Source: Verrucomicrobiota bacterium (GTDB taxonomy: Bacteria; Chlamydiota; Chlamydiia; Chlamydiales; JAFEGQ01). Taken from it: a stretch of DNA of 35,827 nucleotides. The stretch covers positions 1-35,827 of the forward strand of contig JAFEGQ010000062.1 in NCBI GenBank assembly GCA_018239785.1, read 5' to 3'. The notes under the pieces are model-generated. The model was given only the letters and a program-made list of their open reading frames with translations. It was not told where the DNA came from and did no database searches. Positions 7,979-34,869 of the stretch are shown here, piece after piece (the first letter of the stretch is position 1; every line of letters starts with the position of its first letter). The position numbers were made by a program, and so were the translations under genes.

Positions 7979-9793
7979 ATGCAAGGTCGTATTCGCGTTT
8001 TAGATGAGCAGCTGATTAACAAAATCGCTGCGGGTGAAGTGGTAGAAAATTCGGCCTCTGTCGTTAAGGAGCTCGTTGAAAATTCCATCGATGCAGGAGC
8101 CTCTGAGGTGGGGGTCTGGATCAAGGCAGGGGGACGGCAGCTCATTCGGGTGGCCGACAACGGCTCTGGTATGGGGCGAGATGATGCGTTGCTCTGCTTG
8201 GAAAGGCATGCCACTTCCAAAATTCGGGCAGCTGAAGATCTCGTGGAAGTGGCGACGTTGGGGTTTCGCGGGGAAGCCGTGCCCGCAATCGCCTCTGTTT
8301 CAAAACTGACCCTTTTGACAAATCCTGCACAGGGGATGGGGACCGAGCTTTGGATCGAAGGGGGCAAAATCCAACGCTGCCTTGATGCCGCCAGATCTCT
8401 TGGGACCACCTTTGAGGTGGCGGCCCTTTTTTATAATACTCCTGCTAGGAGAGCTTTCCAAAAATCCATCTCCCACGATGCGCATGAGGTGGAGCAGTTA
8501 TTGCAGACAGTGGCTCTTGCTTACCCCCATACTCGTTTTGATTTAACGAGTGATGAGCGCTTGTTATTTTCCTACAGAGCTGAAGAGGGAGAGCTGTTGG
8601 TCGCTCTAGGAGAGCGGATCAAAAAGGTGCTCGGAGAGGGGCTGTGGCGCTCCTTGAGAAAGGTGGATTTTAAAGAGGAGGGAGTTTCCATTTGGGGCTA
8701 CATTTCAGAGCCCGAGTGCACAAAACCCAATAGAGGAGGACAGTATCTGTTTCTCAACGGACGAGCCATCACCTCTCCTGCGGTCTCTGAGATGGTGAGA
8801 ATGGCTTACGGGAGTCGTTTGCCCGAGCGGAGACACCCCCTTTTTGTCCTCCATTTGCAACTGCCTGGCGCATGGGTTGATGTGAATGTCCATCCTCAAA
8901 AGAAGCATGTGCGCATCCGCAATGAAAAGGAGCTTCAAGATTGGATCTTTGCAGCTATGGAAGGGGCGTGGCCTCTGCCTAAAAGAGGAACGGTATTGCG
9001 CGCCTGTGAACCTCAAGTTCCTTATGTTCAGGTATACCCAAATGACCTGAAGAATTGGGATTTGGGCCGCGTTAAAGCCCCGGGGTTCGACGATCTCAAC
9101 CCGCCCAATATTACTAATATTGAACGGGTTGAGATCGTCGAACCGCGGGAGCTTTCACGCAGGCCCAAAACCAATTCTTCAGGTCATTTTGGTATAAGTG
9201 ATTTCCTTGCGTCTCCTCTCCCCTATTCTCCCCCTTCTGCCAACGCACAGCCTTCTTTAGTGGAAATTCCTGCCCAGGTACTGGGGCTTTATGGCCGTTA
9301 TCTCCTTGTCGATGGAGAGTCTCTTGGGGAGGGCAAAAAGGGGTTGGCTTTTGTCGATGTCTTAGCGGCGAGAAGGAGGATTCTCTACGAAGAGCTCATC
9401 ATGGCGAAGAGACAAAGTGGAGCGCAGATGCTCCTCATTCCTCTAACCATTGACTTGTTGCCTGCGGAAAAAAGGGCTTTAGAAGAGCGGCAAAAAGAGC
9501 TCGAGGCTTTGGGAATAGGGGTCCGTTTTTGTGGCTCCCATTCTGCACTGATTGACGCTGTGCCAGCCCATGTGGAGATGGAGGCAACGGAGGATTTTTT
9601 GCGCGCGCTATTGGCGACAAAAGAAGAGCTAGCTGTCGTTGCGGCGATGCGAGGCGCTGTGAGTTCACAAATCTCATCGACAGAAGAGGGGCGAAGGATC
9701 TTGCAGCGCCTCTTGAAATGTGCCGTCCCCTTTTTTGACCCCAAAGGAAAACCTCTAATCGCTTATCTTGAGCCTAAGGAGCTTTTTTCATGA
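7979..9793 (+). CDS. mutL: DNA mismatch repair protein MutL
   Basis: 604 aa with a GHKL ATPase N-terminus (LINKIAAGEVVENSASVVKELVENSIDAGAS, ADNGSGM, LGFRGEA) and a C-terminal dimerisation domain. Confidence 0.95.
   Translation: MQGRIRVLDEQLINKIAAGEVVENSASVVKELVENSIDAGASEVGVWIKAGGRQLIRVADNGSGMGRDDALLCLERHATSKIRAAEDLVEVATLGFRGEAVPAIASVSKLTLLTNPAQGMGTELWIEGGKIQRCLDAARSLGTTFEVAALFYNTPARRAFQKSISHDAHEVEQLLQTVALAYPHTRFDLTSDERLLFSYRAEEGELLVALGERIKKVLGEGLWRSLRKVDFKEEGVSIWGYISEPECTKPNRGGQYLFLNGRAITSPAVSEMVRMAYGSRLPERRHPLFVLHLQLPGAWVDVNVHPQKKHVRIRNEKELQDWIFAAMEGAWPLPKRGTVLRACEPQVPYVQVYPNDLKNWDLGRVKAPGFDDLNPPNITNIERVEIVEPRELSRRPKTNSSGHFGISDFLASPLPYSPPSANAQPSLVEIPAQVLGLYGRYLLVDGESLGEGKKGLAFVDVLAARRRILYEELIMAKRQSGAQMLLIPLTIDLLPAEKRALEERQKELEALGIGVRFCGSHSALIDAVPAHVEMEATEDFLRALLATKEELAVVAAMRGAVSSQISSTEEGRRILQRLLKCAVPFFDPKGKPLIAYLEPKELFS
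9033..9196. repeat. 164-bp near-perfect palindrome embedded in frame in the mutL linker (REP/RPE/MITE-like)
   Basis: I paired the arms base by base around centre 9114. TATACCCAAATGACCTGAAGAATTGG...GGTTCGACGATCTCAACCCG...CAATATT pairs with AATATTG...CGGGTTGAGATCGTCGAACC...CCAATTCTTCAGGTCATTTTGGTATA. Each ~80-bp arm has only a handful of mismatches and three 1-nt indels. Confidence 0.85.
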
Positions 9794-21140: not shown

Positions 21141-21614
21141 ATGAGATATGTCCTCCTCTTAATTGTCATGTTTCCCCTCTTTGGCGAGGTGGCGCTTCCC
21201 TACAGTGCGCCGCCGCCTTCCGCCACCTATGAGGCAGCGCAGCGCTACATTCGCTTTAAAGACCGCGCCGAAGCTTACCGCGCAGAGGGGAACGATAAGA
21301 TGGCCGATCTTTACGACAGGCGAGCTCGTCAAGCGGAAAAGCAATTGAATGGTGCAGAAGGGGGCGAGCATCGGGGGTTTGCCTCTAGGATTCAAGAGGA
21401 GCGCGCTTGGCGCGAAAAAGAGCTCTCCTATCAGCGGCGCCGTGCCAGGGAACCTGGGACGATGACAGCGCGTGAGTCGCAGATCGAGCAGATGACTGGA
21501 GGGAGCTGGCAGACGCTTCCCCATCAAGGGACCTCTTCGGCAAAAAAACGGCAGTATCTATGGCCTTATAAGCAAGGGATCTTTCCTCCCAACGACTACT
21601 CCAACGGCCGCTAA
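21141..21614 (+). CDS. hypothetical secreted, charged protein
   Basis: 157 aa with an N-terminal hydrophobic leader followed by R/E/A-rich helical sequence. I recognise no homology. The antisense ORF 21159..21527 is treated as its shadow. Confidence 0.4.
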   Translation: MRYVLLLIVMFPLFGEVALPYSAPPPSATYEAAQRYIRFKDRAEAYRAEGNDKMADLYDRRARQAEKQLNGAEGGEHRGFASRIQEERAWREKELSYQRRRAREPGTMTARESQIEQMTGGSWQTLPHQGTSSAKKRQYLWPYKQGIFPPNDYSNGR

Positions 21615-22609
21615 TTTTGTGTGCGCTCGAGGTAAAACGCCCACTGTATAGAGTTCTCCTTATTGTCCCACTGACATTTCCCGGTTAGCTGGTAAGCTTT
21701 ATGCAATTGATTATTGAATTTCGTCCAATTTAAAGCGCTGACATCTTCGAAGATCTTAGCAGGCGTATTAATTGAGTCAAGGGTGTGTTTGATGACATAA
21801 GAAGCATTTTCAAATATGCTCCATTTTAAATCTTTCATTACGGCATCTGTTTTTTGTCCTGAAGCGAAATTCATAAAGATCCGATCAGGTTTTAAGGTAT
21901 TCACAATTATAGTCACCGCTTCTTCATTAAAATTATCTATACTTCCATGTAATTTTAATTTTGTAATTTTAATATTATGAGTAGTCAATAGATTTAAATC
22001 TAATGAGTTGGGATCTTTGAGCTTGACAGTGTCAAAATGGCATGCGTTATTTTTGCTGTTTTTTGCAGTAGAGTCTAGGAGCGCCTTCTTTATATTTTCA
22101 CTGAGATCTTCCGGGCTTATATGGTGAATCGACCAATTCTTGGGCAACAACTTGATTGCGTTCAGGAGCTCTTGATCTTTCTCTTCGTAGTCACTCACCT
22201 CGATCACGAAGGGGTCAGGAGGGCAATTTCCCCAATTGATTTCCTCAATTTGAGAGTCACCTGGAAGCATTTTAATGATATCCAAAAAGCAATCTTTTCT
22301 GTTCGTAGAGGGATCTAGAGCAGAAAGATCGAGAGTTTTGTCATTTTTATGCGCTTCAAGCCATTGGTGGAGTTCTTCTTGAGAGGAGAACTTTATTTTT
22401 TGTGTAGAGGGGATGAGAGTGCTAGCTAGAGCGGCAAAGGCGCAAGCGCTGCCGCCAAGGAGGGTAACTTTTTTATCAATTTTTTTCGCGAAATAGGCTG
22501 TTGCAAAGGCTCCAACTCCTAGAAGACAAAAAAGGGAGAATGGTTTTTTAGGCGAGATGTCAACCGCTGTTGAGTGTTGCTGCGAAGGGGAGATATTCTG
22601 GTTTTCCAT
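21611..22609 (-). CDS. hypothetical membrane protein with Inc-like bilobed hydrophobic domain
   Basis: 332 aa from a visibly AT-rich gene. Two closely spaced hydrophobic lobes (FSLFCLLGVGAFATAYFA-KKIDKK-VTLLGGSACAFAALASTLIP) lie near the N-terminus, followed by a ~260-aa soluble domain. Confidence 0.5.
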   Translation of the reverse strand: MENQNISPSQQHSTAVDISPKKPFSLFCLLGVGAFATAYFAKKIDKKVTLLGGSACAFAALASTLIPSTQKIKFSSQEELHQWLEAHKNDKTLDLSALDPSTNRKDCFLDIIKMLPGDSQIEEINWGNCPPDPFVIEVSDYEEKDQELLNAIKLLPKNWSIHHISPEDLSENIKKALLDSTAKNSKNNACHFDTVKLKDPNSLDLNLLTTHNIKITKLKLHGSIDNFNEEAVTIIVNTLKPDRIFMNFASGQKTDAVMKDLKWSIFENASYVIKHTLDSINTPAKIFEDVSALNWTKFNNQLHKAYQLTGKCQWDNKENSIQWAFYLERTQN

Positions 22610-22781: not shown

Positions 22782-23957
22782 ATGAATCCCATCAAGAATC
22801 CTTTTTCACCCGGAGCCGGCTCCCCTCCGCCTGAATTAGTGGGACGCGATTTCATCCTGGAACAAGCGCGCATTCTTTTAGGTAGGACCAAAAAGAAGCG
22901 TTCTGAAAAAAGTTTGTTGCTTACAGGACTTCGAGGAGTGGGGAAAACGGTCCTCCTCAATGAAATTGAAGGTCTGGCGAAGGACGAGGGATACAAGACC
23001 ATCTTCATTGAAGCTCATGAGAACAAAGCGCTTGGCCTTTTAATTGCTCCCTATCTTCGCAATCTTCTCTTTGACTTAGATCGACTTGCTGGAGTGAGCC
23101 ATAAGGTAAAGCGAGGACTTACGACCCTCCGAAGCTTCATGAGTGGACTTCATCTCACTGTGGGGGAGATGACGATCGGATTTCGAGCAGATTCTGAGCA
23201 AGGACTTGCCGACAGCGGGGATTTAGAGATCGATCTGCCCAGCCTTTTCATTGCCATTGGAGAAGCTGCTGAGGATCGAAAGTGTGCGGTAGCGATCTTC
23301 ATCGATGAAATGCAATATTTTAGCCAAAAAGAATTTGGAGCTCTCATCATGGCCATGCATAAGGTGCAACAACTTAAGCTGCCTCTCGTGCTGTTGGGAG
23401 CGGGGCTCCCCATCCTCCCTTGGCTTGCAGGAGAATCCAAGTCCTATGCTGAGCGGCTTTTTCATTTTCCAGATGTTGGAGCCTTATCGGAAGAAGAGGC
23501 AGCTATTGCCTTGAATGAACCAGCCCTTGCTGAAGGGGCGACGTTTGATCCTGCGGCTCTTCGCGAAATCTTTCGCCTGACAAAAGGATATCCCTATTTC
23601 CTTCAGGAGTGGGGATATCAAGCATGGAACGTAGCAAAGGCAAGCCCGATCACTTTAAAAACGGTTCAAGAGGCGACAGAGGCAGTGATTTATCAGCTCG
23701 ACAGGAATTTTTTCCGCGTCCGTTTTGATCGCCTCACTCCAGGGGAGAAGAACTTTTTACGTGGGATGGCAGCTCTGGGGCCTGGCCCTTACCGGATGGG
23801 AGAGATAGTAGACTTGTTGAAGGTCAAACCGACGAGTTTAAGTCCAATGCGCTCTAGGCTGATCCAGAAAGGGATGATTTATAGTCCAGCGTATGGAGAT
23901 TTGGCATTTACAGTTCCCCTATTTGATGAATTTATGATGAGGGCAATGCCCCAATGA
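22782..23957 (+). CDS. AAA/STAND-like ATP-binding protein with C-terminal winged-helix domain
   Basis: 391 aa with N-terminal NPFSPGAGSPPPELVGRD, Walker A GLRGVGKT, Walker B AIFIDEMQY, and a C-terminal wHTH-like LTPGEKNFLRGMAALGP...MGEIVDLL. It resembles the Arch_ATPase/AAA_16 type. Confidence 0.65.
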   Translation: MNPIKNPFSPGAGSPPPELVGRDFILEQARILLGRTKKKRSEKSLLLTGLRGVGKTVLLNEIEGLAKDEGYKTIFIEAHENKALGLLIAPYLRNLLFDLDRLAGVSHKVKRGLTTLRSFMSGLHLTVGEMTIGFRADSEQGLADSGDLEIDLPSLFIAIGEAAEDRKCAVAIFIDEMQYFSQKEFGALIMAMHKVQQLKLPLVLLGAGLPILPWLAGESKSYAERLFHFPDVGALSEEEAAIALNEPALAEGATFDPAALREIFRLTKGYPYFLQEWGYQAWNVAKASPITLKTVQEATEAVIYQLDRNFFRVRFDRLTPGEKNFLRGMAALGPGPYRMGEIVDLLKVKPTSLSPMRSRLIQKGMIYSPAYGDLAFTVPLFDEFMMRAMPQ

Positions 23958-24007: not shown

Positions 24008-27000
24008 ATGAAATCCTTTCTTATTGCCTGTTTTCTCTTTATCTCTCTTTCGGCTAATCCAGAAACTTGTCCTATCTCTCCGATGACTGTGGCCATTGAG
24101 CCGATCGGGCTTATCCATGGGTGTGTCGATGTGGTTTCTGGAGCTTACATTGCTTCCACTGCAGAGGTAACTGTGAACTGTCACGAGCCGATTACCCTTT
24201 ACCGGCATCTCATCTCCTGCAGAGAGTCTAAGGATTCCTATTCCTTTTGGCAGATCGGGAAAGAGTATATCGATTTTAGCGCTCCAGCTCATGCTCGAGG
24301 AGAAACGAGCGGCTTTTTTCGTCTGATTGGGGAGAAAGGGGAAGTGGAGAATTTTATTTTGCTTCCTAACCAAAAAGGGTGGGGATTTCAAAATCGAGAT
24401 AAGCCTTTTGCTCTTAGATGTCAGTCTTTCTCCAGTAATACCTCCTACGGAGAGATGAGCGGTCGGACGCATCCCGGTAATTACATGCTCAACTATGGCC
24501 CCCCTCCTGTGATTAAAAAAGAAGTTGCAGCAGGCAATGTAAGTTTCAGCCGATTGGATCCTTCGAACTGGAGAGACGGCCGCTTTTGTCCACTGCCTTC
24601 AGCACCCATCGCTCAGTGTCGTTTCTTCTCTGATTACGGATCTTACTCCTTCACTCTTCAAACCGGCAGTGGAGAAGTGCGCATCTACACCCATGGGAGG
24701 CAGCCTTGGAGCGACTACAAGCATTGGAAAGACGGGGAGAATCGGGAGCCAAAACAGGAGACCTTCTTGCTCCGAGAGGTGCGTCGCCCTAATGGGAATC
24801 GGGTCTTTTACTTTTACGATGAGAAGGATCGGCTCATAGAGATCTGCTCTGTGAATCGCGCTCTCGACCAGACGTTTGGATGGATTCGGATTTCCCATTA
24901 TTCAGGGGGAGCAACGATCACGACAAGCGATGGGCAGGCCATCACCTATCGCACAAAAAAGATCAGCAGCAATTCGAAGAGCAAATATGTCCTTAGCGAA
25001 GTGCACGGGATGGGAGGGACTCGAGAGGACATTGGGTATCATGTGGCAAAACGAGCAAAAAATCCTTTTGCTATTACATCTCATTGCTTTGAGGGGAGTG
25101 GTTTGTGCGCCGAATATTACCCCGAAACAGAGGCTTGGAATGCTTGCCTGTTGAGCGGTAGGGTCAAGAAATTGGACGTTCACTTGAGGGGTCGCGGAGT
25201 TCGGAATCTTTATTCCTTTGCATATCAAGAAAATGGCCCTGGTTATTTTAATCAGACTTTTGTGACAGATGCTGAAGGAGGGGAAGTCGTTTACATGAAG
25301 GACTTGCGGCGCCTAATAAGGGTCACAAAACTCAACAAACAGCAACCCTTTTTTGTTCTCAATCAGGCATGGGGCGTGAACAATTTGTTGATCGCTCGCT
25401 CGATTGAAGGAAAAAGTTGTGTGGGTTCTCCTTTTGAGCCTTATGTTTCTCACCGTTTCAAGTATGATGACAGAAGAAATGTCACCGAAGAAGCGTTAAG
25501 CGGGCATCTCACTGGCAGAGGGCAGTGGGAGGGGTACCCCACCAACTACACCTACTCAGAAGATGGGTTTAACCTCCCCCTCTCTCAAACGACCGACTCT
25601 CAACGGATCATCAATAGCTATCGCCCTGGGACAGATCTCCTCATCAAGCGGCAAATCTATGAAGGAGATCAGCTCAAAGAGGAGATTTTCCTCGACTATG
25701 ACGATAACGCTGGCGTCATTTTAAAGACCCATCACATCGGCAGTGTCACCTTCCTTGAAGAGACAAAGCGTCGAGCAGATGGTATGCCCCTCGCAGTCAC
25801 CCAAAAGACCCCATCAAGTCAGCTCCACCGCACAATTTTCCATTATAACGAGCGCAATCAAGTCATCCAAACAGACCATTTCGACGCCCATGACGCCTAC
25901 CTTTACAGCCTTTTCACCGAGTTTGATGAACGCTCGCGCGTCATCTCCCAAACAGATCCTCTAGGGCGTAAGACCTATTTTACATTTGACCCTAGAAATA
26001 ACCCTCTCACGACCTACATAGAAGGGATTCCTACAGAGATCTGCTGTGAATATGATCCGATGAATTCTCTCGCCAAAAAGGTTCTGCGCGACCTTGTCAC
26101 TGGGGCAGAGCAAATTGAGCGCTATGAGCGGGACAAAATGGGGCGAGAAACCGCTCGGATCACCCCTTTGGGCGCAAAAATTACCTATCTGAGAGATGCT
26201 CACGGCCGCATCTTAGAAGAACAACAAGTCCCCCTTCGCACTCCTGAAGGGTGGAAAGCTCCCCTCATCATCCGAGAATATGACCCTCTCGACCGGGTCA
26301 TTAAAGAGATCGACCCTCAAGGAGGAGTCACCGAAGTTGACTATACGGCGCGCAACGAGTGGTGCCTCAAAAAACACCCCGATGGCACGCTTGAGAAGCG
26401 CTACTTCACCCTTGAAGGCCAGCTTGAAGAGGAGATTCACAAGGATGGCAGCTCAACGCGCTATACCAGAGATTACAAAGGGCGCATCCTCTCCTCTCAA
26501 CGATGTGACGGCGCAGGCCAAGTGCTCATCGAAGAGACCTTTATTTACGACGGAGATCTCCTCCTCCAACACACCGACCCCCGCGGCTTTACAGCGCACT
26601 ACTCCTACAATGAAGCAGGTCAGCTCCTCCAAATGCGCAAGGAAGATCAGCTCACCGAATATACTTACGATGCACAGGGGCGCAAAATCACAGAACTCTC
26701 TTGGTCGGATCCTCAGCACTACCTCCTCAAGCGCTTAGAATACGACCTTCTCGATTGGATCACTGCTGAGCAGCTGGAAGACGAAACTGGCAAGGTCTAT
26801 CAGCGCAATGAAACGATCTACGATTTAGCTGGCAATGTCATCAAGACATCTACTCTTCTCTCCTCCACAACCACCGACTACGATTCCTTTAGCAGACCTA
26901 TCCGGCAAGAGGATGCCCTTGGACAAGTCACCACGATCTCCTACGCAGAAGTGCCCTTTGAGGGGCAAACGGTTCGTTTGACCACCACTACAGATCCAGT

Positions 27001-29341
27001 GAGCCGGCAAACCCTCACCTACAAAGACGAGCAAGGGCATCTCTTGCACGAAGAGCAAAGAGATGCCCAAAATCATCTCCTCTCCCAAGTCGATTATTTT
27101 TACGATCTCAATGGCAACGAGGTCAAACAGGAGCACCAAGTCCTCTCTGAAGGCCAAATACTCCGCACTTACGCCTTTAGCAACACCTATGGCCCAGGCA
27201 ATTTACTCATTCAATCCACAGAAGGGCTGACGAGTGAATTACCCCGCATCACTCGCTATTTCTACGACTCTGCAAGCCGCCTCAACTGCACCATCAAGCC
27301 AGACGGAGCCCATCTCTACAGAACCTATGATGTCTTAGGCCGCCTTGCCTCTCATGAAGGACCCGATTTTTCGTACACTTACACCTATGACGCAGCCGAT
27401 AACCTCATCGCCGTCAACGACGTTTCTAGATCCTACGATTCCCACAACCGCCTTCTTTCTGAAACAACTCCCTCAGGCACTATTAGCTGCCAAAGAGATC
27501 GTTTAGGTAGACGCACCCACCTCTCCTACCTTGGCCAAGAGGTCAGCTACACCTATCGAGGGCCTTATCTCGCCACTGTTTCCTCTTCCCGCTTGACCCA
27601 CCGCTATCTCGAATATGACCTCGAAGGAAGACCCACCTTGGAGCAATTGCCAGGCAATTGCGGGTCGAGAAGGCGAGAATACGACCCTCTTGGCCGCCTC
27701 ACCCATCTCGACACCGACTATTTTGTCCAAGATCTCGCTTACGACGCCGCCTCAAACCTCACCGACCTCAAAACTCGCTCCTGCTATTTCAGCCGCTCCT
27801 CGATGAACTACGCCTGGGAAGAGAAAGAGGAGAAGTTTGTTTTCGACCCCCTCGACCAGCTCCTCTCAGAGCCTGATGCCACTTATGCGCACGACTCCAT
27901 CGGCAATCGCCTTGTCCACAATGACGATAGCTACAGTTACAACGGGCTCAACGAGCGTCTAGAAGATCCTTACGACCTCTGTGGCAGGCTTTTGCAAGTC
28001 GGCTCACATACCTGTTCCTTTGACAGCCTTGACAGACTCATTCATCTCGACGACAGTTATTTCAGTTACGATGCCTTCCACCGCCGAGAAGATTTGCTTT
28101 ATGACGAGCAGATGGAGTTAGGAGACGCCAAAAACTTCCGCATCCTCGGAAGGGCCCCCTCTCGAGATATCGGAGCGATGGTCCTCGCCATGCTCGATGG
28201 CCTCACCTTTATTCCCATCATGGACCACTTGGGTTCCGTAGTGGCTCTTGTTCTCCCCGATGGTCGCCTTTGTGAAAGGCGCCTCTACTCTGCCTTTGGG
28301 ATCCCTTCAGAGGAGAGCTTTTACCAAAATCCTTGGGGCTTTTGCTCGAAGCGAGCAGAAGGGGAGCTTCTCTTCTTTGGCCGCAGATACTATCACCCCC
28401 CTTCTGGAAGATGGATCAGCCCCGATCCAGCAGGACATGCCGATGGGCCTAATCTCTACGCCTATTGCCACAATAACCCCCTCGGAGAGATCGATCCCAC
28501 GGGTTTATATTCCCTAGTTGACAGAGAGCGCTACTACAGGTCGCAGCCAAATTATTACTTCGATCGCAAACCGGATATCAAAGCTGCACCAAAGTCTGGA
28601 TGGTTAAAGTCCACCTACCAGACCGCAAAAACTCACTTTTTCAGCACTCTTGCTAATCCTCGTGTGCAAGGGGGACTGCAAGCTTGCGTAGGGCTTTCCG
28701 AAATGTTTGCAGGCGGCGCAACGACTTTTGGGAGTTATGGGGTGGCAGCTCCATTAGGATGGCTGGCCGTAGGGCATGGGGCTGATCAATTCACGACAGG
28801 GATGAGGCGCATCTTCAATAACCGCCATCAATTCACTGCTACTGAACATCTGCTCCATAAAACGGGCATGTCTTCAGGCGCAGCAGCTTTTACTAACGGT
28901 ATGCTAAGCTTTACGACGCCTACGGCTGCTCTGAGCATTGCTCGTAGCGCGAGGTATGGCGAACAGACCGTTACGAGACTTTTGTCTCATAGGAGTTCGG
29001 CAGTAGCAGAAGCTGAGGGATGGGTGCTTCCTGCAAATGGAGGAGGCTCTTGGATTAATGGCCGATGGTACACTGAGCATGCATTGGAGCGTATGGCGCC
29101 CAGAACACCAGAAGTGATGGCTAAATTGGAAGTGCGCAGCTTAGCAAGAGCACGTGCTCAAGGTATTTTACCCAGGACAGAAGCATATGGGGACTGGTTG
29201 GCAAAAGGCAACGGCCCTGCTCCTCGAGGGATACCGCCATTAGTTGTTGAAGCTGAAATCGCTCATCCTAGTTCCACTAGTGTGCGTGTATTTTTAAGTC
29301 AAAAAGGGGATGTGATCACCGTTATTCCTGGAGGGCAATGA
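24008..29341 (+). CDS. Rhs/YD-repeat polymorphic toxin with Sec signal peptide and variable C-terminal toxin domain
   Basis: 1777 aa. It has a signal peptide (MKSFLIACFLFISLSANPETC) and a DUF6531-like N-terminal motif (GCVDVVSGAYIASTAEVTV..EPITLYRHL). Dozens of YD repeats follow (YDPLDRVIKEIDPQGGVTEVDY, YTYDAQGRKITE, FDERSRVISQTDPLGRKTYFTFD). The Rhs core ends in GRRYYHPPSGRWISPDPAGHADGPNLYAYCHNNPLGEIDPTGL, with DPTGL at residues 1496-1500 (nt 28493-28507). A 277-aa tail comes after it. Confidence 0.92.
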   Translation: MKSFLIACFLFISLSANPETCPISPMTVAIEPIGLIHGCVDVVSGAYIASTAEVTVNCHEPITLYRHLISCRESKDSYSFWQIGKEYIDFSAPAHARGETSGFFRLIGEKGEVENFILLPNQKGWGFQNRDKPFALRCQSFSSNTSYGEMSGRTHPGNYMLNYGPPPVIKKEVAAGNVSFSRLDPSNWRDGRFCPLPSAPIAQCRFFSDYGSYSFTLQTGSGEVRIYTHGRQPWSDYKHWKDGENREPKQETFLLREVRRPNGNRVFYFYDEKDRLIEICSVNRALDQTFGWIRISHYSGGATITTSDGQAITYRTKKISSNSKSKYVLSEVHGMGGTREDIGYHVAKRAKNPFAITSHCFEGSGLCAEYYPETEAWNACLLSGRVKKLDVHLRGRGVRNLYSFAYQENGPGYFNQTFVTDAEGGEVVYMKDLRRLIRVTKLNKQQPFFVLNQAWGVNNLLIARSIEGKSCVGSPFEPYVSHRFKYDDRRNVTEEALSGHLTGRGQWEGYPTNYTYSEDGFNLPLSQTTDSQRIINSYRPGTDLLIKRQIYEGDQLKEEIFLDYDDNAGVILKTHHIGSVTFLEETKRRADGMPLAVTQKTPSSQLHRTIFHYNERNQVIQTDHFDAHDAYLYSLFTEFDERSRVISQTDPLGRKTYFTFDPRNNPLTTYIEGIPTEICCEYDPMNSLAKKVLRDLVTGAEQIERYERDKMGRETARITPLGAKITYLRDAHGRILEEQQVPLRTPEGWKAPLIIREYDPLDRVIKEIDPQGGVTEVDYTARNEWCLKKHPDGTLEKRYFTLEGQLEEEIHKDGSSTRYTRDYKGRILSSQRCDGAGQVLIEETFIYDGDLLLQHTDPRGFTAHYSYNEAGQLLQMRKEDQLTEYTYDAQGRKITELSWSDPQHYLLKRLEYDLLDWITAEQLEDETGKVYQRNETIYDLAGNVIKTSTLLSSTTTDYDSFSRPIRQEDALGQVTTISYAEVPFEGQTVRLTTTTDPVSRQTLTYKDEQGHLLHEEQRDAQNHLLSQVDYFYDLNGNEVKQEHQVLSEGQILRTYAFSNTYGPGNLLIQSTEGLTSELPRITRYFYDSASRLNCTIKPDGAHLYRTYDVLGRLASHEGPDFSYTYTYDAADNLIAVNDVSRSYDSHNRLLSETTPSGTISCQRDRLGRRTHLSYLGQEVSYTYRGPYLATVSSSRLTHRYLEYDLEGRPTLEQLPGNCGSRRREYDPLGRLTHLDTDYFVQDLAYDAASNLTDLKTRSCYFSRSSMNYAWEEKEEKFVFDPLDQLLSEPDATYAHDSIGNRLVHNDDSYSYNGLNERLEDPYDLCGRLLQVGSHTCSFDSLDRLIHLDDSYFSYDAFHRREDLLYDEQMELGDAKNFRILGRAPSRDIGAMVLAMLDGLTFIPIMDHLGSVVALVLPDGRLCERRLYSAFGIPSEESFYQNPWGFCSKRAEGELLFFGRRYYHPPSGRWISPDPAGHADGPNLYAYCHNNPLGEIDPTGLYSLVDRERYYRSQPNYYFDRKPDIKAAPKSGWLKSTYQTAKTHFFSTLANPRVQGGLQACVGLSEMFAGGATTFGSYGVAAPLGWLAVGHGADQFTTGMRRIFNNRHQFTATEHLLHKTGMSSGAAAFTNGMLSFTTPTAALSIARSARYGEQTVTRLLSHRSSAVAEAEGWVLPANGGGSWINGRWYTEHALERMAPRTPEVMAKLEVRSLARARAQGILPRTEAYGDWLAKGNGPAPRGIPPLVVEAEIAHPSSTSVRVFLSQKGDVITVIPGGQ

Positions 29342-29661
29342 AGGTAGATATTATGGAAATGACTTCATTTTTTGATGAATTAGATCCTTATAATGATGAT
29401 GAAAAAAAAGTTTATGGATTTAGATCTTTTCGCAGTGATTATTTAACTATAAAACTTGGAATTTCTGTTTATGAATCTAAAGTTGCTATTAGCATTTATA
29501 AAGATCTTAAAATATCACTTGCAAGTTTTTATCTTAACGGATGCTTAGAAATAAATGTTTTAGATGAGGCGTGCAAATGCTTAGAAATTATCCACGAAAT
29601 TAAAAATGAAAGATGCATCCTCTCTCTTTATGGGAGTCCAATTCTACAGTATCAAGATTAG
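29338..29661 (+). CDS. candidate cognate immunity protein (paralog 1)
   Basis: 107 aa. The ATGA start/stop overlaps the Rhs gene. It is strongly AT-rich and is a paralog of the 30672..30998 product. Confidence 0.6.
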   Translation: MKVDIMEMTSFFDELDPYNDDEKKVYGFRSFRSDYLTIKLGISVYESKVAISIYKDLKISLASFYLNGCLEINVLDEACKCLEIIHEIKNERCILSLYGSPILQYQD

Positions 29662-29676
29662 GTAATCTTATTAAAA

Positions 29677-30672
29677 ATGAAAAAAATAGTATATTTCGAT
29701 CCTTCTGCTAAAAAAATGAAAAGCAGAATCTATGGCACTACAGCAATCATTTTATTTTTAGCGATGTTGCTGATAGATGTTGCAAATGCTCGAGGTGACA
29801 CTCGCCATCAGGCGGGGGCGTTATTAATAGAAAACATCTATTTACTTGTGCCCTGGTGCTTGGCTTATTTGCTCGTTGCGCGCTATAGAATTTTTCTGAA
29901 AAAGTTTATCCCAATTTATCTATGCTTAGCACTTTTAGTAGCCGCTGCTTCGCAATTTGTTCAGAATGAAAACATACGCATAAATCAAAAAAAGAGATTT
30001 AACGCTGAAGCTGTAAAGATAATGCAGTATTCACTTAATGGACAAATGGCTGATCCAACCGTTCAATTGCCTACGAGTTATTCATCTGAACAATATGGAA
30101 AGGAAGCTAAAGCTTTAAATCATTTGAAGGAAATGGCCGAGCTTTCTCAACAAGAATGGATATTCGTTGCTCAAACTTTTAATGCAATGCATTTAGATCA
30201 GATTTTTTCCGAGAATTTCATTTTCAACTTGTCGGAGATCATTAAGAAAAAGAGAGAGGTTCAAGGATTTCTTAAATTTCTCGATGAAAGTGAAAAAAGG
30301 ATGAGGAAGATCCACTTCCATTGGATTCGAAAAACCCTGTCCTCTATGAGAGTTGAAAATCCTCTAACAACTGATGTAGAGGCAATTTATTCTAAGAGTG
30401 TTCAAGAGCATGGGATTTCTTTTGAAAAAACATTGAATATGTGGAGAAGATTTGCCCAAGAGCATCTGGGTCTTCTCAATGCCCTAGCGGATGCTTATGG
30501 AAGTTATGAAATAGATGAAAATAATGATTTGGTTTTTCTTGATTTTGAAGACGAGCTCAATTGTAACTTGCATCTAAAATATATAAGAAAAATTAGGCAG
30601 GAATCTCAAGATTCTGAGCTGTTAGCCCAACAGTACATCTCAAGTCTACAACAAAATGGCACCGGAGGCTAA
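29677..30672 (+). CDS. hypothetical 3-TM membrane protein with helical C-terminal domain
   Basis: 331 aa from an AT-rich gene. It has three N-terminal hydrophobic helices (AIILFLAMLLIDVANA, IYLLVPWCLAYLLVA, IPIYLCLALLVAAASQFV) followed by a ~220-aa charged, helical region. I recognise no family. Confidence 0.5.
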   Translation: MKKIVYFDPSAKKMKSRIYGTTAIILFLAMLLIDVANARGDTRHQAGALLIENIYLLVPWCLAYLLVARYRIFLKKFIPIYLCLALLVAAASQFVQNENIRINQKKRFNAEAVKIMQYSLNGQMADPTVQLPTSYSSEQYGKEAKALNHLKEMAELSQQEWIFVAQTFNAMHLDQIFSENFIFNLSEIIKKKREVQGFLKFLDESEKRMRKIHFHWIRKTLSSMRVENPLTTDVEAIYSKSVQEHGISFEKTLNMWRRFAQEHLGLLNALADAYGSYEIDENNDLVFLDFEDELNCNLHLKYIRKIRQESQDSELLAQQYISSLQQNGTGG

Positions 30673-30998
30673 TGAACGTTGATATTACGGCGCTTCTCAT
30701 TGTTTTTGATGAGCTGTTGTCATCGACCACTGAGGAGCAAGGAATCTACGCGTTTAGAACACGCAGAGAAGATGGAATTGCTGTTATTTTATCCTTTTCT
30801 ATTCACGAAGGTTCCGTGGATGTTGTTGTTCAAAACAACTCAGGGATCGACATTTCTGTGTTTAAATTAAAAGATTGCTCTGAGATTAATGTCTTAGATG
30901 AAGAGCGCAAGTGCTTGGAAATTTTGCGCAGAGATGGAAAAGGGCGGTGTTTTATCTCGTTAATCGGAGATAGCATCGTGAACTATACAAAAGAGTGA
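30672..30998 (+). CDS. candidate immunity protein (paralog 2)
   Basis: 108 aa. The TAATG start/stop overlaps the 331-aa ORF. A gapless alignment to paralog 1 gives about 41 identical positions out of 107 by my hand count (M.VDI...FDEL...Y.FR...C.EINVLDE..KCLEI...RC..SL.G..I..Y). Confidence 0.6.
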   Translation: MNVDITALLIVFDELLSSTTEEQGIYAFRTRREDGIAVILSFSIHEGSVDVVVQNNSGIDISVFKLKDCSEINVLDEERKCLEILRRDGKGRCFISLIGDSIVNYTKE

Positions 30999-31100
30999 AA
31001 CAGCCTTGTTCAAATCGCGCGGCGCCGCTTGACCCAAGTTCAGGGGTTTTCCTAGAGAGAATCGGTCGAACTTTGAGTGATTCGACACTACGGGTTGAAA

Positions 31101-33045
31101 TCAGACTATAATTTTTTTAGCTTTTGAGATCTGTGGTGAGATCCCAATAGCCTTGTAAATCTCCTTTTGAGACTCTTCGGCTTGCGTTGTACTGCGGTGA
31201 TAAAGGACTTGCCCCTGCTCTAATTTGGCGCACATTGTGATGCGCATGCGGCGCCAGAGGCGATTGCGGAGGGTAGGCCAGTGGTGGAAGAGGTTGCCGC
31301 GGTGACACTGGTACAGGCATGCTTGGATGAGTTGGTAGGCCAAAAGGGTGATCCAAAGGTGTCCGTCAAGGCGTTCTTTTTTCTCATGAAAGATGGGGCG
31401 CAATCCCAAGGAGGACTTCATAAAGCGGAAGGCATCTTCGACTTTCGCAAGGGAGCGATAGATTTCCCAGAGCTTTTGCAGAGGTTCGTTGAGGAGGTTC
31501 GTACGGAGAAAGTAGGAGCCGTTAAGTTTGGCTTCGAGTTTTTCTGGGAGGGGTTGCCATTCGATGGCTGTGGCGATTTGCCCATCTGTTGAGTGGACAT
31601 GGACCTCATAACATCCTGAAATGCGTTTGTGCTTTTCCTTTAACCTTCCGACTCTTTCTAAGATTTTTCCGAGCTTCTTGCGGCAATTGGGGCGAGTGAG
31701 TCCTTCTGCTAATTTTTGTAGATCGGCTTCGAATCTGGTGCAAAAGAGGGTTTTTATCTGCCCGGCAACGGCCTCCTTGTCGGGAGATTCGCAGTAAAGC
31801 CACCTCTCCTCGGAGTCTGTGGTTTTGACCAGAGCTCCTTTGACGTGAGAGTCCCCGAGGAGGACCGGAGGGGCTTCGAGTTCTTCGGAGGGGGGATCTT
31901 GCCTGGCAACAACGATGTAATGGAAATGGTTATCCCTCAACCACGTGAGGTTCTCCTCTGTTGCAATGCCGGCGTCCATGACAATGGTGGGTTTGAAAAG
32001 ATTGCCAGGGACGTTGAGGGCTGCTATCGCCTCTTGCAGGGTTTTTGGCTCAGAGATGTTGCCTGGCAAAAATGAAGAGTGTTGTGTAAATCCGTGCTCA
32101 TTCACGACAAGGCGCAGAGTGATGAGGGGGCAGTCTGAGCGCTTTTCTTTGGACCCGCCCCTTTTTGCATTGGGATTAGCAGTGGCTCGCCCTTCCATAT
32201 AGGTATTAACCTGAGTTTTGGGTTGTCTTCCTCGCAGTCAGAGGGATTTCGCGTCGAAAATCTCACAATTTTTCCCGAAGCCCCTGAATGTGAGGGAGAA
32301 AAACCCAAAACTCAGGTTATTAGATAGGTCATAGAGAATGAGGGTGCTTCGATAGCCGTGGAGGGTCTGCTGGGCCTCTACGAAATGCTTTTCGAGCTCT
32401 TCTTTGTGCTTCAACAGTTTGTCGCTGATCGCGTAGAGATGGTCTAGAGTGGTATTGGCAAAATCGAAGTTAAGCAACTCTCCTAAAGCGCTGGTCTGGA
32501 GAAGCCAATCATAAGTCGCTCGTTCGCTAGATGGGAAGATGGCCCTTCCCAAGATGGACCCTAGGCTCAGGGCGATTTCCTTCTCAGAGAAGCCGAGTCC
32601 TTTGAGAGTTTTTGGCAATTGGAGCTCAGAGGCGAAGTGCAAGAGGAGGTGCTCAGCGCCGACTGTTCTGGGCTCTTGGGTCTCGACGCTTTGTAGGTCA
32701 ATGGTTGCGTAGTCAGGCTCTTGGGGGACTTCTTTTTCCCCAACGCGGTTGAGCAGTCGATGGGTCAGCTCCTGAGTGTATCTGTGAGCTAGGCGCTCTA
32801 TTTCTTCAGGACAAGGGAAAAGAGAAAGAGTTCCGTTAAAGATCTCTTCGATTCTGTTGGCAAGGAGCTTGAGCTCTTCTTTTTTTAGGTCGAGGTCTGC
32901 ATCCAGAGAGAGGAGAATCCTCTGCCTTGCTTCTTTTCTGTGAGCACCGGTTCGACGAGCTGGTAAGAGAAGTAGTCTTTTTGCGTTTTCCGCTCTGTTT
33001 TTCTAGTTTTTCTAATGAATATGGGTCCAATGATAGAGGGTTGGC
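31101..33045 (-). pseudogene. IS1634-family (IS4-like) DDE transposase gene, decayed
   Basis: The C-terminal part 31101..32198 carries (TY)MEGRATANPNAKRGGSKEKRSDCPL, IVMDAGIATEENL and RPIFHEKKERLDGHLWITLLAYQL. The middle part 32238..~33000 carries ...VGAEHLL...STLILYDLSN and is separated from the C-terminal part by the 111-bp insertion. The N-terminal ~60 codons are spread over three frames (LEKLEKQSGKRKK / DYFSYQLVEPVLTEKKQGR / QRILLSLDADLDLKKEE), which implies at least two frameshifts. Element ends were not identified. Confidence 0.75.
32208..32318. mobile_element. 111-bp MITE-like insertion inside the IS1634-family transposase gene
   Basis: It has perfect 17-bp terminal inverted repeats, AACCTGAGTTTTGGGTT (32208-32224) and AACCCAAAACTCAGGTT (32302-32318), with further imperfect pairing to ~29 bp. 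It is flanked by direct ATT copies at 32205-32207 and 32319-32321. Removing the element plus one ATT (114 nt) fuses ...LILYDLSN to TYMEGRATANP... in frame, which restores the conserved LYDxxNTYxEG region. Confidence 0.8.
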
Positions 33046-33627: not shown

Positions 33628-34869
33628 CGCGGGGATTTGGGGGGGCAGCGCCCCCCAATTCTATCTCTTTCAAAAATCCGATTTTTTCTATTTTTCATTA
33701 TATAATTCCTCGGGCGTTACATAACCCAAACTCTGATGAGGTCTTTTTCCATTATAAAAATTGAAATATGCTGTTAATCCGGCATTTACCTCAGGAAGAT
33801 GCTCATAGGCTTTGGGATAGATGTCCTCGTATTTCACACTTCTCCACAGTCTTTCCACCATGATGTTATCAAAAGCTCTCCCTCTCCCATCCATGCTGAT
33901 AGAGATTCCGCCCTCTGCTAACCTTCCTGTAAAGCGAGAGCTGGTAAATTGGACGCCCTGGTCAGTATTGAAAATTTCAGGACTCCCGCAAGAAAGCGCC
34001 CTTTCTAATGCTTCAAGGCAGAAGTCTGTATCAAGAAGATTTGACAATTGCCATGCAAGCACATAGCGACTGTACCAATCCATGATGGCAAACAAATACC
34101 CAAATCCATGGATCACAGGAATATAGGTAATATCCCCAGCCCACACTTGATTCGGGCGACATATCGTCATTCCGCGCAAGAGGTAAGGATATTTTTTGTG
34201 ATCGCGATGACCAATGCTCAATCTTGGTTTGGGATAAATAGCCTCCAACCCCATGAATCGGATTGCTGACCTCACTATGGTCTCTCCTACATCAAACCCT
34301 TGCCTTCTCATCTCCACCGCCATCCGCCTTCTTCCATAGAAAGGGGTCTCCATGTACTGCTTGTCAATAGCAGTCATTAAACGATAGGTCTCCTCGGAGG
34401 GCTGTCTCGGCTCGTAATAAAGCCCCGAACGGCTGACTTTAAGGAGGGAGCATTGCTCCCTCTCTGACAAGATGGGATCCTCCTTGTCAATGAGGAGGCG
34501 TCGTTCATTCAGGCTAAGGTACCGAATTTTTTTTTAAGCCACTCATTTTCCATCTTCAGGCGTCCAATTTGCTCGAATAATTCAGCCTTTTCCTTGGCGT
34601 CTGTAGCGTCCTTTGCTCGCTTTGATTTGCGAAAAACTTCTGGACAAAATTCAAGAAATTGCTTTTTCCACCCCGAGAGAATCATCGGATGAACCTGTAG
34701 GTCTCCTGCAAGTTGAGCAGCTGTCTTTTCCCCTTTAAGCACCTCTAGGACGGCTTTCACCTTGAATTCCGGGGTGTGATGCTTTCTTGGTCCTCCCATT
34801 TTACCCTCCACATGTTGGGAGGTTATAAGCTTAGGGGGTGGTCCGAATTTGCCATACCACTATAGTGCA
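33615..34869 (-). mobile_element. IS3-family insertion sequence (boundaries approximate)
   Basis: This span encloses orfA and orfB. One candidate pair of termini (TGAGCATTCG... at 33615 and ...TATAGTGCA at 34869) gives TG...CA ends and about 1.26 kb. However, the terminal inverted repeats pair poorly and I see no 3-bp target duplication, so the ends are unresolved. Confidence 0.45.
33688..34811 (-). CDS. IS3-family transposase OrfAB (orfA 34509..34811; orfB reached by -1 frameshift)
   Basis: OrfA is HTH-like (HTPEFKVKAVLEVLKGEKTAAQLAGDLQVHPMILSGWKKQF) and ends ...WLKKKFGTLA. An A9 run lies at 34527-34535 on the minus strand. The -1 frame continues IRYLSLNERRLLIDKEDPILSEREQCSLLKVSRSGLYYEP into OrfB, whose DDE triad is WAGDITYIP, FNTDQGVQFTS and MVERLWRSVKYE. 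Confidence 0.9.

What the first reader, a model, noticed from the sequence alone, without database searches (positions are those of the whole stretch)
29338..30998. Two divergent paralogs of a ~107-aa protein bracket a 3-TM protein in a strongly AT-rich cassette
The products of 29338-29661 and 30672-30998 align without gaps (about 41 of 107 identical by hand count; shared core C-x-EINVLDE-x-x-KCLEI ... RC-x-x-SL-x-G). Their nucleotide composition nonetheless differs markedly. By eye, the first copy and the 331-aa gene are far more AT-rich than the Rhs gene or the second copy. This suggests separate acquisition or ongoing cassette exchange at the Rhs 3' end. The 331-aa membrane protein, coupled to paralog 2, could be a second toxin, a membrane-anchored immunity factor or receptor mimic, or an export/lysis helper. 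None of these roles is standard in Rhs loci.
Basis: partly seen in the sequence, partly recalled or inferred. Interest (0 to 1): 0.7.

Follow-up and report, generated by a model that had tools for sequence, protein, structure and literature searches.

The report
Rhs toxin with spare immunity genes
The two small paralogs are immunity proteins for the toxin tip of the neighbouring Rhs gene, one matched to it and one a spare from elsewhere. The membrane protein between them belongs to a new family that keeps turning up next to Rhs genes, so this is an ordinary toxin-immunity layout built from uncatalogued parts.

Summary
I1 (29338-29661) and I2 (30672-30998) are true paralogs: 41/105 identical, no gaps, E 1e-25. 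They bracket a 331-aa protein with three N-terminal TM helices. GC falls from 50.6% (Rhs) to 28% (I1), 36% (TM331) and 40% (I2).

The last 107 aa of the Rhs protein are a separate toxin domain (T). In all 9 distinct loci that carry T, an I-family gene follows within 0-5 bases. The same pairing recurs behind other delivery proteins, including Bacillus plasmid proteins. T-I1 is therefore a cognate toxin-immunity pair.

I2 is an intact orphan immunity gene. It is closer to homologs in other genomes (56-60%) than to I1 (38%), so it was acquired separately and is not a local duplicate.

TM331 is a real gene. It has about 30 distant homologs and an AF2 model with pLDDT 88. All 7 informative contexts lie beside Rhs genes, but it is never the first gene after a toxin. 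Its role is inferred, most likely an orphan envelope immunity protein.

T, I and TM331 match nothing in Pfam, NCBIfam or PDB. Overall this is a known kind of locus (Rhs plus a poly-immunity array) made of new families.

The parts
24008..29341 (+). Rhs/YD-repeat polymorphic toxin gene (1777 aa). It has an N-terminal Sec-type signal-like sequence (MKSFLIACFLFISLSA).
   Evidence: Pfam RHS_repeat E 1.5e-35. NCBIfam Rhs_assc_core TIGR03696 E 1.9e-17 on the last 330 aa. Sequence.
28493..28507 (+). DPTGL motif (aa 1496-1500). It marks the end of the conserved Rhs core and the start of the 277-aa variable C-terminal region.
   Evidence: Regex on the translation. The role of DPxGL as the core/tip boundary is from established Rhs literature (my knowledge).
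28508..29017 (+). Linker plus a glycine-rich hydrophobic 'pre-toxin' module. It is shared by chlamydial toxins that carry different tips.
   Evidence: tblastn 34-39% identity in L001, L005, L006, L014 and L023, upstream of at least 4 different toxin tips. No Pfam hit.
29018..29338 (+). T: a 107-aa C-terminal toxin domain with motif INGRWYTEHALERMAP...PRGIPPxVVEAEI...VITVIPGG. It is basic (pI 9.8).
   Evidence: 52 homologs. AF2 pLDDT 91.7. No match in Pfam, PDB sequences, PDB folds or BFVD. Always followed by an I-family gene. pI.
29338..29661 (+). I1: the cognate immunity gene (107 aa, pI 4.7). Its start overlaps the Rhs stop (ATGA). GC 28%, GC3 0.185.
29677..30672 (+). TM331: three N-terminal TM helices followed by a roughly 235-aa helical-bundle domain. 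It belongs to a new family associated with Rhs arrays.
   Evidence: Hydropathy. About 30 homologs by exhaustive phmmer. AF2 pLDDT 88.3. No Pfam, NCBIfam or PDB fold match. Contexts.
30672..30998 (+). I2: an intact orphan immunity paralog (108 aa, pI 4.7). Its start overlaps the TM331 stop (TAATG). GC 40%, GC3 0.42.
   Evidence: Family HMM score 158.7, higher than I1's 143.8. Tree and identities.
31101..32642 (-). IS4-like DDE transposase split into two ORFs (probable pseudogene). It ends the array.
   Evidence: Pfam DDE_Tnp_1 E 1.7e-12. ORF layout.
33688..34811 (-). IS3-family orfA/orfB.
   Evidence: ORF translations. The IS3 assignment comes from my reading of the sequence and was not scanned.

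Best explanation
This is the 3' end of an Rhs polymorphic-toxin operon in what is probably an environmental Chlamydiota chromosome.

The Rhs shell protein ends at DPTGL. It is followed by a hydrophobic pre-toxin module and a 107-aa basic toxin domain (T).

I1 is translationally coupled to the Rhs stop codon. It is the cognate cytoplasmic immunity protein and is inferred to bind and block T in the producer.

I2 is a second, intact member of the same immunity family and arrived independently. It may be the surviving half of an older, displaced T-I module or a separately captured cassette. It serves as an orphan immunity gene, giving cover against divergent T variants delivered by competitors or serving as a reserve.

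TM331 is a passenger of the same downstream immunity array. It is a membrane-anchored protein whose helical domain is predicted to face the periplasm. Most likely it is an orphan immunity protein against an envelope-acting toxin.

IS elements bound the array.

Shown: paralogy, the composition steps, strict T-to-I synteny across delivery scaffolds and phyla, non-sister status of I1 and I2, and the recurrence of TM331 homologs beside Rhs genes.

Inferred: the biochemical activity of T (possibly a nuclease or RNase, given a basic toxin paired with an acidic cytoplasmic immunity protein), actual neutralisation by I1 and I2, and the immunity role and topology of TM331.
For: T-I pairing:
- T is followed within 0-5 bases (overlap to a 5-base gap) by an I-family gene in the window, L002, L003 (truncated T), L005, L007, L014, L015, L016 and L017-19. 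That is 9/9 distinct loci.
- The carriers differ: Rhs proteins, a 247-aa protein, a 645-aa protein on a plasmid- or phage-like element, and a stand-alone 104-aa T.
- In Bacillus plasmids T ends PT-TG and SLH-domain proteins. There it is followed by a 107-aa distant I homolog.

Orphan copies:
- I copies without T occur in arrays in L001, L004, L005b, L006a/b and L008. L006a is a pseudogene. L006a and L006b keep the last 8 codons of T upstream.
- I2 is 60% identical to the L014 copy, 56% to L017 and 38% to I1, and is not sister to I1.

Composition and charge:
- Low GC is a family-wide trait of I genes, 28-41%.
- T has pI 9.8. I1 and I2 have pI 4.7 and no signal peptide or TM segment.

TM331 homologs lie in Rhs arrays:
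- L028/L009: 5th gene after the Rhs gene.
- L014: 2nd gene, in the same array as an orphan T-I pair.
- L021/22: 5th gene.
- L023: 4th gene.
- L011-13: adjacent and divergent.
- L024: upstream of an Rhs remnant.

Literature: poly-immunity loci and TM immunity proteins are described in PMC3482391.
Against: - No toxicity or neutralisation data exist.
- T has no recognisable fold or family, so its activity is a guess.
- TM331 homologs are never the first gene after a toxin (0/5 downstream cases). They do not track any one toxin tip: the tips in those loci are T, AHH-like, Tox-REase-9 and two other types. No cognate toxin is therefore identified.
- Two TM331 homologs lie upstream of Rhs genes, which is unusual for immunity genes.
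- The window T has higher GC3 (0.36) than I1 (0.18), which is odd for a single recently acquired module.
- The sample of contexts is small, mostly metagenomic, and limited to what the look-up tools returned.
Confidence: 0.75

Rival explanations
1. I1 and I2 arose by tandem duplication within this locus and then diverged. TM331 was inserted between them later.
For: They belong to the same family, lie on the same strand within 1 kb, and both are intact.
Against: I2 is 56-60% identical to I genes in other genomes (L014, L017) but only 38% to I1. In the NJ tree I1 groups with L015 and I2 with the L006/L007/L014/L017 clade. GC3 is 0.18 vs 0.42. The tree is a quick distance tree on about 107 columns, so deep branches are weak.
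Confidence: 0.1
2. TM331 is not an immunity protein. It is an accessory factor of T6SS-independent, Sec-exported chlamydial Rhs toxins, for example a periplasm-spanning helper for release across the outer membrane or a lysis-type protein.
For: All 7 informative contexts lie beside Rhs genes, including two upstream or divergent positions (L011-13, L024) that are atypical for immunity genes. It is never first after a toxin. The Rhs protein has a signal-like N-terminus and no T6SS genes were seen in the window. The C-terminal domain is predicted to be periplasmic (positive-inside reasoning; single-TM variants).
Against: It is absent from the sequence held for most Rhs loci sampled through the I family: L005, L006, L015 and L016 (one search lists all M hits). 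Its position in arrays varies, it sits among immunity-type genes, and the family is very divergent (23-32% identity). An essential partner would be expected to be conserved and fixed in position. No endolysin or spanin partner is present. The protein is far larger than holins.
Confidence: 0.15
3. TM331 is itself a toxin or effector, for example a membrane-active helical protein. I2, translationally coupled downstream, would be its immunity protein.
For: The TAATG overlap couples TM331 and I2. Low-ranking Foldseek hits include ClyA-family alpha-pore-forming toxins.
Against: I2 belongs to the family that pairs with T in 9/9 loci. No other TM331 homolog is followed by an I-family gene directly; L014 has three genes in between. 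The Foldseek hits have probability at most 0.3, TM-score at most 0.29 and E at least 0.39, which is noise for long helices. TM331 has its own start codon and no Rhs-core or pre-toxin leader.
Confidence: 0.04
4. The T-I pair works mainly as an addiction (toxin-antitoxin) module that stabilises the locus or regulates growth, not as an inter-bacterial weapon.
For: Stand-alone T proteins of 97-104 aa with their own start codons exist. The bacteria are probably obligate intracellular, with limited contact with competitors. Rhs orphan modules acting as a type II TA system have been reported in Salmonella (PMC7043789, title and abstract only).
Against: In the window, T is fused to a full Rhs shell with an export signal. 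Elsewhere it is fused to PT-TG and SLH secreted proteins. That is delivery architecture. Orphan immunity arrays fit defence against incoming toxins.
Confidence: 0.1

Closest known systems
Rhs / YD-repeat polymorphic toxin systems with cognate RhsI immunity genes (E. coli, Dickeya, Salmonella, Serratia; PMC3150448, PMC3482391)
   Same: RHS-repeat core, DPxGL boundary and variable C-terminal toxin tip. A small immunity gene is translationally coupled immediately downstream. The 3' cassette is AT-rich relative to the core.
   Different: No T6SS genes (VgrG, PAAR, Eag) were seen in the window, and the N-terminus looks Sec-dependent. The toxin tip and immunity protein belong to families absent from Pfam, NCBIfam and PDB. 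The host lineage is probably Chlamydiota.
Orphan immunity genes and poly-immunity loci (Zhang et al. 2012, PMC3482391; Serratia Rhs orphan immunity, PMC10539506; Bacteroidales acquired interbacterial defence, PMC10470768, abstract)
   Same: An extra, divergent paralog of the cognate immunity gene lacks its own toxin. It sits in an array with unrelated small genes and the array is bounded by mobile elements. Related loci (L005, L006, L014, L021) show long heterogeneous arrays.
   Different: The array here is short (three genes). It contains a 331-aa three-TM protein rather than only small cytoplasmic proteins. PMC3482391 reported extended poly-immunity loci only in proteobacteria, bacteroidetes, firmicutes and actinobacteria, so the chlamydial arrays seen here (e.g. 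L005) extend that range.
Membrane or secreted immunity proteins (Imm17 and CdiI-type two-TM proteins; secreted or TM immunity to L,D-peptidase toxins; PMC3482391 section 38)
   Same: N-terminal TM helices and residence in an immunity array.
   Different: TM331 has three TM helices plus a large helical bundle. It shows no sequence or fold match to these proteins, and no adjacent cognate toxin appears in any of 5 downstream contexts. Membership is not established.
Bacillus cereus-group plasmid toxins annotated as PT-TG or S-layer-homology domain proteins
   Same: They end in the same T domain (39-45% identity). They are followed by a 107-aa distant I-family homolog, and in one case by a barstar-family orphan immunity gene.
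   Different: The delivery scaffold is entirely different (Gram-positive, SLH or PT-TG). The T domain carries a 13-aa insertion. The immunity protein is only marginally similar (HMM 15-22 bits).

Membership tests
Rhs polymorphic toxin system | RHS/YD repeats and the Rhs-associated core domain | tested here: met
   PF05593 E 1.5e-35. TIGR03696 E 1.9e-17, above its cut-off.
Rhs polymorphic toxin system | DPxGL boundary followed by a C-terminal tip that varies between otherwise homologous proteins | tested here: met
   DPTGL at aa 1496. Homologous cores in L005, L006, L014, L021, L023 and L028 carry at least 4 different tips.
Rhs polymorphic toxin system | Cognate immunity gene immediately downstream, co-varying with the tip | tested here: met
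   9/9 T domains are followed by an I-family gene. Rhs genes with other tips (L006, L014, L023) are followed first by other genes.
Rhs polymorphic toxin system | Tip is toxic and is neutralised by the immunity protein | not testable with these tools
   Needs expression and binding assays.
Rhs polymorphic toxin system | Link to a delivery machine (T6SS VgrG/PAAR, or another route) | tested here: not met
   No such genes appear among the window ORFs scanned. The upstream gene is an AAA_16 ATPase. The N-terminus looks like a Sec signal. The scan covered only the larger ORFs.
Orphan immunity / poly-immunity array | Homolog of a toxin-linked immunity family that lacks an adjacent toxin | tested here: met
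   I2 is preceded by TM331. No T remnant is found by tblastn or HMM in 29600-31100.
Orphan immunity / poly-immunity array | Relic of the displaced toxin's 3' end upstream of the orphan | tested here: inconclusive
   Clear in L006a and L006b (ITIIPGGQ*). Upstream of I2 only ...NGTGG* with GGAGG at the same spacing is seen, which is too short to judge.
Orphan immunity / poly-immunity array | Independent origin of the paralogs rather than local duplication | tested here: met
   Identities and NJ tree. GC3 contrast.
Catalogued toxin (Tox-/Ntox) and immunity (Imm) domain families | Significant profile match | tested here: not met
   Pfam and NCBIfam: no hit for T, I1, I2 or TM331. PDB profile searches were negative. 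Only families present in these libraries were tested. PADLOC and PHROGs were not searched.
Two-TM immunity proteins (Imm17 / CdiI type) | Small protein made essentially of two TM helices, adjacent to its toxin | tested here: not met
   TM331 has 3 TM helices plus a 235-aa domain. It is never first after a toxin in 5 downstream contexts.
Holin / phage-type lysis cassette (as used for Tc toxin release) | Small holin (under about 150 aa) with a neighbouring endolysin or spanin | tested here: not met
   TM331 is 331 aa. No lysin-type Pfam hit appears among its neighbours. The comparison rests on my general knowledge of holins.
ClyA-family alpha-pore-forming toxins | Structural match of the helical bundle with the beta-tongue | tested here: not met
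   Foldseek against PDB: ClyA, Hbl, Ahl and Smh hits have probability at most 0.21, TM-score at most 0.23 and E at least 1.

The most novel reading that the evidence does not exclude
The TM331 family is not an immunity protein. It would be a previously unrecognised membrane or periplasmic accessory of T6SS-independent Rhs toxins in Chlamydiota, helping a Sec-exported Rhs cocoon leave the cell or reach its target.

Separately, T may represent a new toxin fold shared from Chlamydiota to Bacillus.
Probability: 0.12. Interest if true: 0.7.

Novelty: new member of a known kind. Interest (0 to 1): 0.38.

Why it matters
The finding adds a toxin-immunity pair that current domain libraries miss. The pair is carried by Rhs, PT-TG/SLH and other scaffolds in Chlamydiota and Bacillota, with T-domain homologs also named from Actinomycetota and an archaeal MAG. 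The toxin model is confident and has no solved structural relative.

It shows that environmental Chlamydiota keep Rhs loci with heterogeneous immunity arrays. These are mostly intracellular bacteria with no T6SS genes seen near the Rhs gene in this window. That points to bacterial conflict inside shared hosts.

It also flags a new membrane-protein family tied to these arrays. That family is a concrete candidate for either envelope immunity or Rhs export. The layout itself is textbook.

Tried and rejected
- **Family searches.** Pfam and NCBIfam scans of I1, I2, TM331, the Rhs tip and family members found nothing.
- **Structure searches.** PDB sequence and profile searches for T and I found nothing. 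Foldseek of the T model against PDB and BFVD, and of the TM331 model against PDB, gave no hit below E 0.3.
- **TM331 homologs.** The word-indexed search found only the query itself. The exhaustive search was needed.
- **Toxin remnant upstream of I2.** None was found by tblastn or HMM.
- **ORF332 (21611-22609).** It is not related to TM331.
- **Metagenome scans for TM331 relatives.** Two alignments were too divergent to seed a pattern. The third returned only the P0074 locus.
- **Phages.** No T homolog.
- **Promoter and terminator scan of 28800-31300.** Nothing informative.
- **R-S-E ADP-ribosyltransferase reading of T.** Rejected, because the ExE and S-T motifs are in the wrong order and the domain is too small (my reasoning).


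Full report
**1. Observation**

- I1: 29338-29661, 107 aa
- TM331: 29677-30672, 331 aa
- I2: 30672-30998, 108 aa

They follow a 1777-aa gene at 24008-29341.

I1 and I2 align without gaps. They share 41 of 105 residues, with BLASTP E 1e-25.

Composition by gene:

| Gene | GC | GC3 |
|---|---|---|
| Rhs | 50.6% | 0.53 |
| I1 | 28.1% | 0.185 |
| TM331 | 36.3% | 0.334 |
| I2 | 40.1% | 0.422 |

The I1/I2 GC3 contrast is about 3.8 standard errors for genes of this length (my arithmetic). It is therefore real. However, I2 is still well below the Rhs gene, and TM331 lies between the two paralogs.

Hydropathy gives three TM segments in TM331, at aa 18-36, 49-67 and 75-95.

The four genes are tightly packed:
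- The Rhs stop and I1 start overlap (ATGA).
- 15 nt separate I1 from TM331.
- The TM331 stop and I2 start overlap (TAATG).

No promoter-like site was found inside the cassette on the + strand.

**2. The large gene**

It matches RHS_repeat (E 1.5e-35) and the Rhs-associated core (TIGR03696, E 1.9e-17). Its N-terminus looks like a signal peptide. A DPTGL motif sits at aa 1496-1500.

The 277 residues after that motif fall into two parts.
- The first is a glycine-rich hydrophobic module. It recurs at 34-39% identity in other chlamydial toxins that carry different tips.
- The second is a terminal 107-aa domain, here called T.

The rest of the window is chromosomal and includes RecA, MutL, PGI and TolB-like genes. 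Homologs of the cassette proteins come mainly from Rhabdochlamydiaceae, Chlamydiales and Neptunichlamydia assemblies. The window is therefore probably from an environmental member of the Chlamydiota. This is an inference; the source is not given.

**3. The small proteins are the immunity partners of T**

A profile of I1 + I2 finds only 18 other proteins among 5.8 billion. T finds 52.

I examined 13 distinct loci that carry I-family genes.

- T is present in nine of them: the window, L002, L003 (truncated), L005, L007, L014, L015, L016 and L017-19. In every one an I-family gene starts within 0-5 bases of the T stop codon.
- The protein carrying T differs between loci. It is a full Rhs protein in the window, L005 and L016. 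L015 has an Rhs-sized 1793-aa protein that gave no Rhs hit. L002 has a 247-aa protein. L017-19 has a 645-aa protein on an element with primase-helicase, resolvase and methylase genes. L014 has a free-standing 104-aa T.
- In 27 Bacillus cereus-group plasmids, T (39-45% identity) ends proteins annotated as PT-TG or S-layer-homology proteins. In the two I inspected, the next gene is 107 aa long and matches the I profile weakly (22 and 15.5 bits).

Conserved toxin-immunity adjacency across unrelated delivery scaffolds is the defining signature of a polymorphic toxin system (PMC3482391).

T is basic (pI 9.8). I1 and I2 are acidic (pI 4.7) and have no export signal. This fits a cytoplasm-acting toxin, possibly a nucleic-acid enzyme, but that is only a guess.

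The AF2 model of T is confident (pLDDT 91.7; a beta-hairpin, four helices, then a beta-hairpin). It matches nothing in PDB or BFVD. Sequence profiles match nothing in Pfam or PDB either.

**4. I2 is an orphan copy with a separate origin**

Seven of the 16 I-family copies lack a full T upstream.
- Five are bare orphans inside arrays of small genes or alone: window I2, L001, L004, L005b and L008 (Hymenobacter).
- The two L006 copies retain the last eight codons of T (ITIIPGGQ*) just upstream. One of them carries an in-frame stop. Those relics show that orphan copies are leftovers of displaced T-I modules.

Upstream of window I2, only ...NGTGG* with a GGAGG at the same spacing remains. That is too little to call.

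I2 is intact. It keeps every invariant family residue and scores higher against the family profile than I1 does.

I2 is 60% identical to the L014 copy and 56% to the L017 copy, but only 38% to I1. In a neighbour-joining tree the two window copies fall in different clades. Local tandem duplication is therefore unlikely.

Low GC is general for this family: 28-41% in all copies, always below the flanks. Along the window array GC3 runs T 0.36, I1 0.18, TM331 0.33 and I2 0.42, against about 0.55 in the Rhs core. This is compatible with newer cassettes lying nearer the Rhs gene. The higher GC3 of T relative to I1 does not fit that picture neatly.

**5. TM331**

The word-indexed search found nothing but the query. 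The exhaustive search found about 30 relatives at 23-32% identity. Several are full length including the TM region. Some have the C-terminal domain duplicated, and some have only one N-terminal hydrophobic segment.

With that alignment AF2 gives pLDDT 88.3. The model has three TM helices, the third running on into a bundle of long helices with one small hairpin.

No Pfam, NCBIfam or PDB fold match was found. The ClyA-type hits are noise-level.

Positive-inside reasoning, together with the signal-like single-TM variants, predicts that the helical domain faces the periplasm. This is an inference.

All seven informative genomic contexts are next to Rhs genes:

| Locus | Position of the TM331 homolog |
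|---|---|
| window | 2nd gene after Rhs |
| L028/L009 | 5th, after an AHH-type Rhs |
| L014 | 2nd, in the same array as an orphan T-I pair |
| L021/22 | 5th |
| L023 | 4th |
| L011-13 | adjacent and divergent to a Tox-REase-9 Rhs |
| L024 | upstream of an Rhs N-terminus fused to an immunity gene |

Three other contigs were too short to judge.

The family is absent from the sequence held for other Rhs loci (L005, L006, L015, L016). It does not track any one toxin tip, and it is never the first gene after a toxin.

This is the behaviour of an array passenger. The most economical reading is an orphan immunity protein for an envelope-acting toxin. TM and secreted immunity proteins are known (PMC3482391, section 38). 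I put this at roughly 45-50%.

An accessory role in export of these Rhs proteins, which appear to be T6SS-independent, is the main alternative (about 15%). A toxin role is unlikely.

**6. Comparison with what is known**

The locus meets the tested defining features of an Rhs polymorphic toxin system:
- repeats and core domain
- DPxGL boundary
- a variable tip
- a co-varying downstream immunity gene

It also meets the tested features of an orphan-immunity or poly-immunity array (PMC3482391, PMC10539506, PMC3150448).

It lacks any visible T6SS link. None of its three cassette proteins belongs to a catalogued family.

The inference of separate acquisition and cassette exchange is upheld.

**7. 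Verdict**

This is a real, well-formed feature of a known kind built from uncatalogued families. The novelty lies in three things:
- the T-I pair, which spans phyla and scaffolds and has no structural relative
- the Rhs-array-associated TM331 family
- the chlamydial setting

Interest is moderate to low (0.38).

The most novel reading not excluded is TM331 as an Rhs export or release accessory. I give it a probability of about 0.12.

Noticed in passing
window 28508-29017: A glycine-rich hydrophobic module lies between DPTGL and the toxin tip. It is conserved at 34-39% identity in chlamydial toxins carrying at least 4 different tips, and in a non-Rhs proline-rich protein (L001 770-2242). It has no Pfam match. 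It may be a shared translocation or pre-toxin domain.
   Followed up: partly
L026 1481-4665; L027 1454-4738 (Bacillus plasmids): The same toxin domain ends PT-TG and S-layer-homology proteins on 27 Bacillus cereus-group plasmids. In the two inspected it is followed by a 107-aa distant homolog of the immunity family. One locus also has a barstar-family gene downstream.
   Followed up: partly
L006 9243-9632 and 9940-10000: Two orphan immunity copies keep the last 8 codons of the toxin (ITIIPGGQ*) upstream. The first copy has an in-frame stop at 9372-9374 and is a pseudogene.
   Followed up: yes
window 30650-30672: TM331 ends ...QNGTGG*, with GGAGG at the same distance from the I2 start as the PGG codons of the toxin are from the I1 start. 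This could be a tiny relic of a lost toxin 3' end or just a shared ribosome-binding site.
   Followed up: partly
window 21611-22609 (-): A 332-aa ORF with low GC (39.6%) and two closely spaced N-terminal TM segments (aa 23-41, 48-66). It has no family match and is unrelated to TM331. The bilobed hydrophobic N-terminus recalls chlamydial inclusion-membrane proteins (my recollection, not tested).
   Followed up: partly
window 22782-23957 (+): An AAA_16 / STAND-like ATPase gene lies directly upstream of the Rhs gene. A link to the toxin locus is unknown.
   Followed up: no
window 31101-32642 (-) and 33688-34811 (-): An IS4-like transposase split into two ORFs and an IS3-type orfA/orfB directly follow the array. 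Transposase fragments also follow the arrays in L015 and L028.
   Followed up: partly
L014 1363-6243: The public gene calls show only small reverse-strand genes here, but the + strand holds an intact 1626-aa Rhs ORF. This is a gene-calling error in the source.
   Followed up: yes
L024 2151-2924: A 257-aa ORF joins an Rhs N-terminus (signal peptide plus the first conserved region) in frame to an immunity-like sequence. It looks like a deletion remnant of a whole Rhs gene.
   Followed up: partly
L005 4893-9409; L021 6643-10717; L014 6249-10174: Chlamydial Rhs genes are followed by long heterogeneous arrays of small genes drawn from a shared pool, including Cys_rich_CPCC and zinc-ribbon types. 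PMC3482391 had reported extended poly-immunity loci only in four other phyla.
   Followed up: partly
L008 9947-10324 (Hymenobacter montanus): An I-family homolog (35-41% identity) sits in a low-GC island of small ORFs in a Bacteroidota genome, with no T domain nearby.
   Followed up: partly
window 29018-29661: Within the presumed single T-I1 module, GC3 differs sharply (T 0.36, I1 0.18). In other loci T and I have similar GC3 (0.19-0.39 vs 0.21-0.31). This is unexplained.
   Followed up: partly
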